Of a DNA stretch of 64,000 nucleotides, positions 14,299-64,000 are shown in pieces (within the stretch, counting starts at the first letter, position 1; each line of letters opens with the position of its first letter). The stretch is taken from assembly GCA_030324005.1 (NCBI GenBank), contig JARDVH010000031.1, forward strand, positions 38,234,442-38,298,441, in the 5' to 3' direction. The stretch comes from Negaprion brevirostris. Lineage: Eukaryota. A program made the position numbers and the translations under genes. The notes below the pieces were generated by a model. It was given only the letters and a program-made list of their open reading frames with translations. It ran no database searches and was not told the origin of the DNA.

Positions 14299-15281
14299 GA
14301 ACCCTTAAATGTCAACTTGGATGGATTAATGAGCAACCAAATCACTGATTCAGTTCCAGAAGATCCATATTCACAAGAAGCTACAGAGTTATTTCATCCG
14401 TCCACTGAAGGCAGCACAGTGACTGATGGAGATGTACAAAACGAATCTTTAGTAGATGAAACCCTATCTGTCGAAGAATATGAATGCATGTCACCTGATG
14501 ACATTTCTTTGCCTCCACTTCCTGAGACTCCAGAATCGAATATACTCCATTCTGAAACAGAAGTGGATAAAATGTCCAGGTTGAGTTCCCACAGTCTATT
14601 TGCTGGGTCTTACAGTGGCCAATCACAGATGCAAGCAAGCTGTAGCAGAATGACTGACAACTCTGACCTGCCGGCACCTGTTGGCACTGCTGATACCATA
14701 AATCACTCAAGATCACAAGTTCATAGTGGGTCAGATTGTCGTTCCTCATCTCGTCCAAATCACAGCACTGAGCCCTGCACAAAATACAGATCTGAGTCTT
14801 CCTCATTTATCCACAGCCCACTGACAATTCCTACACCCAATATTGTTTCGAGCATGCATTTTATAAAATCCCAGTCGGTAACTAATTCATCAGCCTGTGA
14901 TTCTTTCTCTGAAGTGCATGAGACACAGCTACAGACTTACAATATGCATGAAAGTGTGACTGAAACTCAGGAGTTGCTGCATGGTCATAATCGGAGCTGT
15001 TTTGGAAAAGAATTGAGTTCTAACAAAAATAGCGTATATGCTTCACCTGAACCACTAACAGTGCCCTGCAATATAGATCAATCAGTGCATGATACAAGCT
15101 TTCGTATGGATACTGTGGTCGGAGAGGAAATCAGACGTACGTCAAGAAGCACAACCACGTGCAACCTGGCTAGCAACACACCCAACTTCTCCAAGCTCTT
15201 GTCTAATGTCAATGTGCTAGAAGGTTCTCCTGTGACCTTGGAAATAGAAGTAACAGGATTCCCAGAACCAACTTTGACGTG
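14299..15281 (+). CDS. CCDC141: CCDC141 penultimate exon: Ser-rich region plus first half of the I-set Ig domain (PNFSKLLSNVNVLEGSPVTLEIEVTGFPEPTLTW)
   Basis: Polypyrimidine tract plus taag| acceptor; ORF 14287-15309; contains EEYECMSPDDISLPPLPETPES and the Ig start that I recognise from CCDC141; TG|GTGGGT donor at 15282 (phase 2). Confidence 0.93.
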
Positions 15282-16139
15282 GTGGGTAACATATAACAAG
15301 CAACAATAATTCAAAGTTAAATTGCTTCCATTTGGGAACATTTCATATTACATGAAGATACATTTAGCTCCTCAGCATGAGCTGTTGACCATAGGTCTGA
15401 TGCTTTTTTGTGTTATTATAACCTAAGTCTAGACATAATTTTTTTCACTATTCAGTTAAGATCATTTTCTAGAAAGCTTGAAGAATATATGAGAAGTTTA
15501 ATAACCCATGAAACCACAAGATAAATTAATTGGAAATTGAATAATATAATTACATGATTAATTAAAGCACATTAAGGATGGCATAGCAGATGACATGAAA
15601 ATAGTGCAGCCTGTGGGTTCTCCTGGATGCTGTTGTGACCTAGAGCAAACGCATCTGCAGTTAGTGTTTCAGCTGGAGGAGCTTCAACTCAGTTATTGAG
15701 CTGGAGGCCGAGGTGTAGACACTCACATCAAGGAAGGAGAATGTTACCTGGATTTTTTTTACCAGGACATAGTCACTCCATTTAGAATATGGTCCTCTGA
15801 TTTGGTCAGTGGTCAGGGACTGGATAGTGTGACTGGAAGTGAAGCAGGGAAGGGGACTCAGAGGGAAGCAGTGCTGGAACTTAAGCTTTTGCAATTGTCC
15901 ATTAGGTTTGAGGCTCTCTCAGTTTGTTTGGGTGAGAGTGGGGGCTGCAGGGTGCATGAATGAACTAACCAAATATCCGTAGTACAAGAAACCATCCAAG
16001 TGGAGGAACAGTTAAAAGGAACATAGTGGTTGTAGGGGACAGTACAGTGACGGGATTGGCACTGTTCTTCTCAGCAAAGAGTATGAAGCCAGACTGCTAT
16101 GTTGTCTACCCGATAGCAGAATTTGGGATGGTCTTTAGG

Positions 16140-26187: not shown

Positions 26188-26473
26188 GTACAAGAATGGA
26201 CAGCAGCTGACAACAGATCAGCATTTAAAAATTTCAAACAAGGAAGGCAAACACATTCTTTTCATTGACAAGGTGTCTGATAAAGATGCTGGCATTTATG
26301 TTGTACGAGCTAAAAATTCTAATGGTACTGTCAGTTCCAGTGCTATCCTTCAAGTACAAGGTAACTGCAGTCTCAGCTGTTTCCACACTGGTGATGTAGA
26401 CTGGTTCACCTGTCTTGGTTTGTTGTGTACACTATATGTTAGCTTTTTTCTTGTGTATATGCTGTTGATCTAA
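26188..26473 (+). CDS. CCDC141: CCDC141 terminal exon: second half of the Ig domain (YKNGQQLTTDQHLKISNKEGKHILFIDKVSDKDAGIYVVRAKNSNGTVSSSAILQVQ) plus hydrophobic tail (DWFTCLGLLCTLYVSFFLVYMLLI*)
   Basis: ctttacttcag| acceptor; G at 26188 completes the split Trp codon (TG+G), giving the canonical W-Y-K-N-G; D-x-G-x-Y Ig motif; TAA at 26471-26473. Confidence 0.92.
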
Positions 26474-54700: not shown

Positions 54701-55229
54701 TAGCTAAACGCCTGACCCTCATCTACCCACNNNNNNNNNNNNNNNNNNNNNNNNNNNNNNNNNNNNNNNNNNNNNNNNNNNNNNNNNNNNNNNNNNNNNN
54801 NNNNNNNNNNNNNNNNNNNNNNNNNNNNNNCCTTCTTGAACCCCCTCCCTGACCACCCAAATCACCCAAATCCCCTCCCCCAACCACCCAAACTACTCTC
54901 CTCAACCCTCTCTTGCCAACCACCCTAACCCCTATCCACATATCTTACAACTTACCTTCTCCAAGCTTCTCAAGGTGGCTGGGACCAATAAATGTGCCAG
55001 AAACTGGTGTGTACAAAGTGGGTATGGTTTCACTACCCCCAACACTGATGCCTCCAGGAGCTGCGTTACATTTCTCACTAGGCCTGGGATGGAAGATCAG
55101 GTGGAAAATGTGCAGCACCTGACTTGGTTATGTGAAAAGGTGTGTAGTGGCAATCCAATGATGAGTGCCAGTCCGCTGAGGTTCTGGCTTATAAGTTGCG
55201 GAGGTGGCTTGGCAGGACAGATGCTGCAA

Positions 55230-60896: not shown

Positions 60897-61225
60897 AATG
60901 TGTAATGAGGCGGGTAGAATTAGGGACCTTGTGGTGAAGGATCCTCTTGGGGAGAGTGATCATTGTATGGTTGAGTTTCTGGTGCAGATGGAGGAGGAGA
61001 AAGTGGGTTCCCGGACACGCGTCCTTTGTTTGAACAGAGGGGAGTACGGNNNNNNNNNNNNNNNNNNNNNNNNNNNNNNNNNNNNNNNNNNNNNNNNNNN
61101 NNNNNNNNNNNNNNNNNNNNNNNNNNNNNNNNNNNNNNNNNNNNNNNNNATTGAATGGCGGGGCAGGCTCGAAGGGCTGGATGGCCTACTCCTGCTCCTA
61201 TTTCTTATGTTCTTATGTTCTTTAT
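60897..61225 (+). mobile_element. Young CR1 LINE, collapsed across an assembly gap
   Basis: Endonuclease end (DPLGESDHCMVEF) before the gap and the CR1 3' tail after it; CpGs retained. Confidence 0.75.
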
Positions 61226-62186: not shown

Positions 62187-62341
62187 TACAAGACAAACCT
62201 CCAATTTTTGAAAAGAAATTTGGTGATTCAGTATTAATGACAGGGGAAGATCTGATACTCCATTGCATTATTTCAGGACAACCAAAACCAAGTATTACAT
62301 GGTTAAAGGATCACGTGATACTTTCACCCAAGAAATCCAAT
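62187..62341 (+). CDS. Ig I-set domain exon, N-terminal half: (V)QDKPPIFEKKFGDSVLMTGEDLILHCIISGQPKPSITWLKDHVILSPKKSN
   Basis: tttttatttctag| acceptor, AAT|GTGAGC donor; phase 1 start, phase 0 end; I-set hallmarks PPxF, G-E-D-L-I-L-H-C, G-x-P-x-P-x-I-x-W-x-K-D. Confidence 0.88.
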
Positions 62342-62453
62342 GTGAGCCATCTAAATTTGATTTTATTTGTTTTATTTCAGGCTATTAGAGTCTAATGGTT
62401 ATATGGTTTAATAACATATTTAATGTGCTTAATAAAGTGTTTTTTTAATTTAG

Positions 62454-62583
62454 AGAGAGCACTTTGGTGAAAATTATGTATTCAGGAAAAGAAATATAGG
62501 CTCAGCTGATACTGGAATATATAGTTGCATTGCCAGAAATGTAAAAGGAGAAGTGCACTGTTCGGCTTCAATAGTTGTTACAG
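62454..62583 (+). CDS. Ig I-set domain exon, C-terminal half: REHFGENYVFRKRNIGSADTGIYSCIARNVKGEVHCSASIVVT
   Basis: ttttttaatttag| acceptor after a 112-nt intron, ACAG|GTATTT donor; phase 0 start, phase 1 end; D-x-G-x-Y-x-C-x-A-x-N-x-x-G motif. Confidence 0.88.
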
Positions 62584-63229
62584 GTATTTGTATAATTGAT
62601 TTATTGCAATGTAAAACTTTCTAACATTGACCATATGATAACTATAAGCTACACAGGGCATAAAGTGTAAGTACATGCTAATGACTGGATTACGGTTTTC
62701 TATATTCAGAACAAAAAGTTAAGATTTATATGATATAATATAACCATTTTATTTTCAATAGCTAACAGATTTATCAAATTTGTAGCTCATGATAAATATC
62801 AGTTCTTCAATTAGTGTTATTACATATCGGCAAAGTGCAGCAAATATATTACTGGCACCCATTCAAGCTGAACAATAGCACCTATGAAATGGACACGCTA
62901 AAGTGCAGATTGCCTAGAACAACTTTGTTTCTAAATGCATTGGAGGTTCAGAAACCCATAGCTAAACCAGGTTCATGCTAATGCTTTAAGATAACATAAA
63001 AACATAACATCAACATAATGTAAACACTTCCAATGTATATTAATCTATATATTACTACATAGCTAGTAAAAATGTTTTCTCATTACAGCTGATAAACTTA
63101 AGACATTTTAAGCTTAATATGGAATTTTAACAAAAACATGAATTTACTTTACTATTACTGAGTACAATAATGCACGAGGAATTTATTTCTACATAGTTTT
63201 GAAACATTATTAATGGTGGTTGATTTCAG

Positions 63230-63380
63230 AAAAACATAAAGAATTATCCACTACCAGTAAGGAAACTCCAGAAAAGGATAAGGGAATTATGATCAAGAAA
63301 GTTAGACCTGATTCATTTATAAATACAAACAGACGTGGAGCATGTTGTGTAAATGATCAAAGATCAAAGACATGGTCAAG
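63230..63380 (+). CDS. Linker-type exon (E)KHKELSTTSKETPEKDKGIMIKKVRPDSFINTNRRGACCVNDQRSKTWS; the gene continues beyond the window
   Basis: gatttcag| acceptor, consensus AAG|GTAAGT donor; 151 nt open in exactly the phase (1) required by the preceding exon. Confidence 0.7.
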
Positions 63381-64000
63381 GTAAGTTGACCATTCTTTTT
63401 GTATGATGCCCTTATGTATGTCCTTACATTTGTTGCAATTGTGTAATACATAAGAAGTGCCATCGAATATTTTTACTTTTAACTCACTGTGCAGTTTCTT
63501 CCAATTTCCAGTTTCATTATTTTAATACAAATGCCAAAATTCGGTAACTGAAAATATGAACTTGAACAGTGAAATTGTTGTATGGTGAGATTGAAAGAAG
63601 GTGGAAGGAATCTTGAGCAGAGTGTAAGACCTAGACATAGACCTAGCGTGAGATTTTCTGCCCATGCTCAGCCCAAGGCTGAAAATTCCCAGTTTCAGGT
63701 CAATGGATCTTTGATGGTCCCGCTCCACCCCTCCCCCTGCTCCGTGCTACAATGGGAAAACTCTGCCCCTATTGCATTGAATGTCTTGTTTTGGTCTTAC
63801 GAATACCACATAATGCAATTCTATGTAATATGCATACAACATGGCAACATATTTCTCTACAGTGGCATACAAAATGCAGCATAACTTATGTAAGAAAAAC
63901 AAACAGCCAAATAGAAGATAATCAGAATTATACTTGAAGAATTTAACTTAATCTCATGTCTTTTTACAACTGTAGTTTCCTGAAGTTTAAACTCAGCAGT

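What the first reader, a model, noticed from the sequence alone, without database searches (positions are those of the whole stretch)
62187..62583. Intact two-exon I-set Ig domain invisible to the ORF track and unlike titin Z1
Seen: two exons (155 and 130 nt, 112-nt intron) assemble into a complete ~95-aa I-set domain with both core cysteines, the core Trp and DxGxYxC, with no stops, in an otherwise decayed landscape. It has no start codon context and does not match the titin N-terminus as I recall it (MTTQAPTFTQPLQS...). Inference: a coding module under selection between CCDC141 and TTN that may be absent from mammalian gene models.
Basis: partly seen in the sequence, partly recalled or inferred. 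Interest (0 to 1): 0.7.

Follow-up and report, generated by a model that had tools for sequence, protein, structure and literature searches.

The report
Second Ig domain of shark CCDC141
The two exons are real and spliced, but they are not a new gene: they encode an extra immunoglobulin domain that gives the heart protein CCDC141 an alternative, membrane-anchor-free tail, already present in automatic gene models of another shark, old fish lineages, reptiles and birds.

Summary
Observation confirmed. Exons 62187-62341 and 62454-62583 join to an open 94-aa I-set domain. The domain is the second Ig (Ig2) of a long CCDC141 isoform: epaulette shark RefSeq XP_060684102.1 carries it right after Ig1 (61% over 145 aa), as do 53 of 120 CCDC141 proteins listed. 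Likely mechanism: a donor inside CCDC141's last exon (26360) either reads through to a transmembrane tail or splices 35.8 kb on to Ig2, giving a soluble form. That junction is inferred, not seen. Ig2 keeps titin-type B/F/G cysteines. It is absent from 43 teleost and 28 amphibian models, with a decayed trace in cyprinids. No mammalian sequence was tested; published human and mouse isoforms show one Ig. No titin fusion was seen. Ordinary gene anatomy with a modest, apparently undescribed evolutionary story.

The parts
14299..15281 (+). CCDC141 large penultimate exon; ends with the first half of Ig1 (phase-2 donor). Read-through of the donor stops after a few codons.
   Evidence: tblastn with Mustelus CCDC141 93%; Pfam I-set 1-35; splice sites read
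26188..26360 (+). CCDC141 last common exon: second half of Ig1, ending at an internal phase-1 donor (AG|GT)
   Evidence: other vertebrates' models switch to Ig2 at this residue
26361..26473 (+). Read-through part of the same exon: 37-codon tail with hydrophobic (transmembrane) stretch, and stop
   Evidence: matches the tail of most shark and ray models; TM isoform described for mammals in PMC12657953
26361..62186 (+). Inferred 35.8-kb intron of the long isoform
   Evidence: inference: phase match, epaulette-shark model order, no other Ig exon found here by tblastn with 150 multi-Ig proteins; junction itself not seen
62187..62341 (+). Ig2 exon A (155 nt, phase 1 to 0): residues 1-51, Cys26 at 62264, Trp38 at 62300
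62342..62453 (+). 112-nt GT-AG intron, phase 0
   Evidence: skipped by contigs of X1 and X2; same position implied by bird and alligator isoforms
62454..62583 (+). Ig2 exon B (130 nt, phase 0 to 1): residues 52-94, Lys63 at 62487, Cys76 at 62526, Cys87 at 62559
62584..63229 (+). 646-nt GT-AG intron
   Evidence: skipped by contigs of X1 and X2
63230..63380 (+). Exon C (151 nt, phase 1 to 2): about 50 aa of poorly conserved tail, open to a GTAAGT donor; the next exon was not found in the window
   Evidence: 24 of 43 aligned residues identical to the epaulette-shark tail

Best explanation
These are alternative 3' exons of CCDC141. The last common exon holds an internal 5' splice site just after Ig1. 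If it is ignored, translation runs into a short transmembrane tail and stops (membrane-anchored form). If it is used, the transcript splices 35.8 kb on to exons A, B and C, so the protein ends Ig1-Ig2-short tail with no membrane anchor (soluble, probably sarcomere-associated form). Shown: exon structure, A-B-C splicing in relatives, orthology to annotated CCDC141 Ig2. Inferred: the 26360-to-62187 junction in this species, the protein itself, and its role. The likeliest role is to extend or modulate the titin-binding C-terminus (Ig1 region binds titin in mouse, PMC12657953), with buried B/F/G-strand cysteines that could make it redox-sensitive like titin I67/I69.
For: Epaulette shark XP_060684102.1 has Ig1, Ig2, exon-C tail in this order and maps to all three exons. 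53 of 120 listed CCDC141 proteins have the domain one residue after Ig1, 75-105 bits for full-length matches, against at most 64.7 bits among 150 multi-Ig proteins. An HMM built without shark sequences scores the window domain 112.7 bits; the best of the other domains from 264 non-CCDC141 proteins scores 68.5. In a quick tree the window domain sits with 14 of 14 Ig2 rows (SH-aLRT 96), sister to the epaulette Ig2 (99). Phases match at 26360 and 62187. Both RNA-like contigs carry 30 letters before 62187 that are not the intron, which fits a branch at an alternatively used donor (inference from 31-letter words). No gaps in any exon in either contig; Ig exons differ less than exon C in X2 (17/281 vs 21/145, Fisher p=0.006). 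Cys26 and Cys76 in 39 of 39 distinct rows, Cys87 in 38 of 39, aligned with the triads of titin I67 and I69 (PMC5766482).
Against: The 30 upstream letters were not displayed, so the upstream exon is unproven. Only 1 of 54 long chondrichthyan models examined has Ig2, so the isoform is probably minor or tissue-restricted. Ig2 is less conserved than Ig1 between the window and epaulette shark (34/47 and 32/43 vs 32/35 and 50/56), about the level of the adjacent linker (199/269). The X1 contrast is not significant (p=0.12). The runs are only guessed to be RNA, come from relatives, and show one contig each. The careful tree did not finish. No protein or binding evidence exists for Ig2.
Confidence: 0.88

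Rival explanations
1. The exons are the surviving linker of a 'connectitin' transcript: CCDC141-Ig1-Ig2-exon C splices in frame into titin and gives a fused protein.
For: Exon C stays open to a strong donor; the X2 contig runs 46 letters past its last aligned base. PMC12198301 proposes an ancestral fused SESTD1-CCDC141-TTN gene and notes several Ig domains in Drosophila Zormin; it and PMC12657953 cite a human CCDC141-TTN spanning RNA.
Against: All 40 tails printed end in a stop within about 100 aa of Ig2's end, none entering titin; the epaulette model stops just after exon C. The legend for the human spanning RNA marks a stop codon. The elephant-shark titin paper has 0 mentions of CCDC141. Searches covered proteins only up to 2000 aa, so a fusion could have been missed.
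Confidence: 0.07
2. A decaying relic, still spliced at low level by read-through transcription but no longer making a useful protein in this shark.
For: Rare in shark models (1 of 54); faster evolution than Ig1; the equivalent exon has decayed in cyprinids.
Against: Intact frame and splice sites; the window residue matches the family's invariant positions, including an unusual Lys63 found in 39 of 39 rows; no gaps in two relatives' contigs; short terminal branch, 0.11.
Confidence: 0.04
3. A separate small gene, or 5' exons of TTN driven by their own promoter.
For: 35.8 kb from the previous CCDC141 exon; upstream partner not seen in reads.
Against: Exon A has an acceptor and no start codon; every full-length protein found with the domain is CCDC141.
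Confidence: 0.02

Closest known systems
CCDC141 long isoform, Hemiscyllium ocellatum XP_060684102.1 (automatic RefSeq model)
   Same: Ig1-Ig2-tail order; 61% identity over 145 aa covering exons A, B and C; Ig2 70% identical
   Different: Only species-level divergence; the exon after C lies outside the window
CCDC141 Ig2 isoforms of sturgeon, paddlefish, gar, bowfin, bichir, lungfish, turtles, crocodilians, squamates, birds
   Same: Same domain one residue after Ig1, 40-51% identity for uninterrupted full-length matches; same intron position implied by skipped and retained-intron isoforms
   Different: Tails after Ig2 diverge strongly; birds and turtles carry about 45 further residues
Human/mouse CCDC141 (CAMDI) as described in PMC12657953
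   Same: Spectrin repeats, one Ig, transmembrane tail; read-through short isoform; gene next to TTN
   Different: No second Ig in the described isoforms (24 exons); mammalian DNA not tested here
Titin I-band Ig domains I67/I69 (PDB 3B43)
   Same: I-set fold; cysteines at B, F and G strand positions align
   Different: Per-domain scores only 29-51 bits; not orthologous; Ig2 has a Lys at an E-strand position that is hydrophobic in these titin domains
Drosophila Zormin / 'connectitin' (PMC12198301)
   Same: CCDC141 orthologue with spectrin repeats followed by several Ig domains
   Different: Homology of Ig2 to any Zormin Ig not tested; no fusion with titin shown

Membership tests
I-set Ig domain (PF07679) | Pfam score at or above the gathering cut-off | tested here: met
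   32.4 and 23.8 bits for the two halves separately, cut-off 23.7
I-set Ig domain (PF07679) | B-strand Cys, C-strand Trp, DxGxYxC motif | tested here: met
   Cys26, Trp38, Asp70-Cys76
I-set Ig domain (PF07679) | Folded beta-sandwich | not tested
   No structure prediction run
CCDC141 Ig2 | Groups with annotated CCDC141 Ig2, apart from Ig1 and other Ig domains | tested here: met
   HMM 112.7 vs 68.5 bits; quick tree SH-aLRT 96
CCDC141 Ig2 | Downstream of CCDC141 Ig1, same strand, compatible splice phase | tested here: met
CCDC141 Ig2 | Spliced to the Ig1 exon in transcripts | tested here: inconclusive
   30 upstream letters in both contigs, not displayed; joined in the epaulette-shark model
Titin (TTN) exon | Orthology to a titin Ig domain | tested here: not met
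   Titin chains in PDB score 51 bits or less per domain shown; no titin Z1 sequence was in hand for a direct comparison
Titin (TTN) exon | In-frame continuation into titin | tested here: inconclusive
   0 of 40 printed tails continue; window ends at 64000; proteins over 2000 aa not searched by words
Titin-type cysteine-triad Ig | CysB, CysF, CysG at aligned positions | tested here: met
   39/39, 39/39, 38/39; alignment to 3B43
Titin-type cysteine-triad Ig | CysB-CysG disulfide and force-induced isomerisation | not testable with these tools
   needs single-molecule pulling

The most novel reading that the evidence does not exclude
Boldest: sharks still make an in-frame CCDC141-titin 'connectitin' protein through Ig2 and exon C, a living version of the proposed ancestral fused gene. 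A milder and likelier reading (about 0.5, interest about 0.4): a transmembrane-versus-Ig2 splice switch is ancestral to jawed vertebrates and was lost separately in teleosts, amphibians and mammals, which no paper found here describes.
Probability: 0.07. Interest if true: 0.7.

Novelty: already known. Interest (0 to 1): 0.25.

Why it matters
It corrects gene annotation: most shark and ray CCDC141 models lack an isoform that is spliced in relatives. CCDC141 is a heart protein whose C-terminus binds titin and whose isoforms localise differently (PMC12657953), so a soluble two-Ig form in birds, reptiles, sharks and old fish lineages bears on how the protein is placed in the sarcomere and on the connectitin hypothesis. 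It offers a simple test of that hypothesis (what follows exon C). It is not a new gene or a new kind of system.

Tried and rejected
No genome is held for this window, so the exon after C and TTN could not be located. Word search with exon A alone: 2 candidates, none significant. phmmer against 1.84 billion representatives and the profile search with alignment A1 were crowded by multi-Ig proteins; one search says nothing about mammals. ESM Atlas gave only generic I-set clusters. No RNA holder was listed on record; X1 and X2 are guessed RNA. A repeat at 61150-61222 filled the loose-end table, so the letters flanking the spliced contigs were not shown, and only 40 of 110 difference rows were shown, so no dN/dS was possible. 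Mapping other sharks' short alternative tails onto acceptors in the intron found nothing, but its positive control also failed, so the test is void. No convincing exon after C in 63381-64000. Rejected: Lys63 as a sign of decay (invariant in 39 of 39); Ig2 as a recent copy of Ig1 (not sister groups; about 30% identity). Earlier scan notes: none found. No structure or complex prediction was run.

Full report
Observation. Pfam I-set matches the halves at profile positions 2-44 and 53-90. tblastn with 150 multi-Ig proteins found Ig matches at only two other places in the window, both CCDC141 exons, plus one weak single hit near 55150.

Splicing. Of 11 runs listed (none on record as RNA) I laid 4: two guessed RNA (X1, X2; different coded organisms and studies) and two large runs (X7, X11). 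One contig each in X1 and X2 skips 62342-62453 and 62584-63229, both GT..AG, without gaps; X7 and X11 contigs cross the first intron unspliced. This reveals a third exon, 63230-63380, open in frame up to a GTAAGT donor. Both contigs have exactly 30 letters before 62187 that do not follow the intron. With 31-letter words this is what a branch at an alternatively used upstream donor would leave (inference); the letters were not displayed. Differences from the window were 17/281 in the Ig exons against 21/145 in exon C for X2 (p=0.006) and 9/284 against 9/132 for X1 (p=0.12).

Identity. The window holds the 3' part of CCDC141; its closest listed protein is from Mustelus asterias (93%), so the source is probably a ground shark. 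Of the 120 proteins listed out of 543 hits, 53 carry the domain one residue after Ig1; seven of these are half or interrupted forms. Cluster look-ups added the epaulette shark model XP_060684102.1, which matches exons A, B and C at 61% over 145 aa and stops just after, and bowfin XP_066543970.1. An HMM from 13 bony-vertebrate Ig2 sequences scores the window domain 112.7 and the epaulette domain 100.9 bits; the best other domain among 4426 scored in 266 sequences gets 68.5. In a quick IQ-TREE run (64 rows, 98 columns; the careful search did not finish and was not resumed) the window domain falls with all 14 Ig2 rows (SH-aLRT 96), apart from the 14 Ig1 rows. It is a CCDC141 exon pair, not a separate module.

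Mechanism. The last common exon (26188 on) has an AG|GT site at 26360, just after Ig1, in phase 1. Reading through gives 37 codons with a hydrophobic stretch and a stop at 26471-26473, the tail of most shark models. Splicing there matches exon A's phase and is the point at which other vertebrates' models switch to Ig2. The gene therefore most likely makes a membrane-anchored form and a soluble Ig1-Ig2-tail form. Bird and alligator isoforms that skip exon B, skip both exons or keep the intron imply the same exon boundaries there. PMC12657953 (passages, section 6, supplement search; figures not held, one scanned supplement unreadable) reports that the mammalian C-terminus binds titin's C- and P-zones and that isoforms with and without the TM segment localise differently; a role for Ig2 in that binding is my inference. 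Ig2 has cysteines at 26, 76 and 87 in 39, 39 and 38 of 39 distinct rows, aligning with the triads of titin I67 and I69, which PMC5766482 (passages) shows can isomerise under force. Whether Ig2 ever bears force is unknown.

Distribution. Among fetched models of 1000 aa or more, Ig2 (over 70 bits) occurs in 1 of 54 chondrichthyan, 6 of 8 non-teleost ray-finned, 0 of 43 teleost, 2 of 2 lungfish, 0 of 28 amphibian and 46 of 71 sauropsid rows; 19 shorter rows were left out, and rows are isoforms, not independent species. Absence from models is weak evidence, as the sharks themselves show. Eight of 50 distinct tails, all cyprinid, weakly match the start of the Ig2 profile directly after Ig1 (6-14 bits; best shuffle of one such tail 6.8 in 1000), which looks like a decayed exon A. 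No mammalian CCDC141 was retrieved, and the search meant to find one was crowded out. PMC12657953 gives the human gene 24 exons and one Ig; PMC12198301 (abstract and passages) also gives one Ig.

Results against my reading. The key junction is unseen; only one shark model has the isoform; Ig2 is clearly less conserved than Ig1 (72-74% vs 89-91% to epaulette shark) and no more than the neighbouring linker (74%).

Titin fusion. PMC12198301 proposes an ancestral fused gene and cites spanning transcripts (Labeit 2006 and Burkart 2007, neither seen by me). None of the 40 tails printed runs into titin, the epaulette model stops after exon C, and the elephant-shark titin paper PMC12241362 (first fifth read, term search) never names CCDC141. 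Proteins above 2000 aa were outside the word searches and the window ends 620 nt after exon C, so the fusion is unlikely but open. PMC1851013 (one passage) only confirms synteny in zebrafish.

Novelty. The exons are in public automatic gene models. Paper searches found no description of a second CCDC141 Ig domain or of this splice switch, but the library lacks most subscription papers. Verdict: real, already annotated elsewhere, modest interest (0.25).

Noticed in passing
   Followed up: yes
proteins P0439, P0435, P0438, P0451, P0457, P0459, P0461, P0250 (cyprinid CCDC141 tails): Alternative tails after Ig1 look like a decayed, still spliced remnant of Ig2 exon A (6-14 bits against the Ig2 profile).
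   Followed up: partly
window 62487-62489: Lys63 sits at an E-strand position that is hydrophobic in the titin domains aligned, yet is invariant in 39 of 39 Ig2 rows, followed by Arg in 38; possibly a functional basic patch.
   Followed up: no
window 15282-15309 and 15561: Read-through of the penultimate exon's donor ends after a few codons, with a poly(A) signal at 15561; this matches the half-Ig short isoform type seen in fish, amphibian and skate models and described for mouse.
   Followed up: partly
proteins P0156, P0158, P0283, P0285, P0286, P0291, P0294-P0296, P0299, P0301: Several shark and ray models leave the Ig1 exon at the same internal donor but end in short unrelated tails, so that donor is in use across chondrichthyans; I could not map these tails in the window.
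   Followed up: partly
amphibian CCDC141 rows such as P0176, P0209, P0255: Ig1 itself looks degenerate in several frogs and caecilians (low profile scores, altered tyrosine-corner motif).
   Followed up: no
window 61150-61222: End of a very high-copy repeat (summed depth in the millions in X7 and X11); window has 18 runs of N, mostly 100 nt, often beside such repeats.
   Followed up: no
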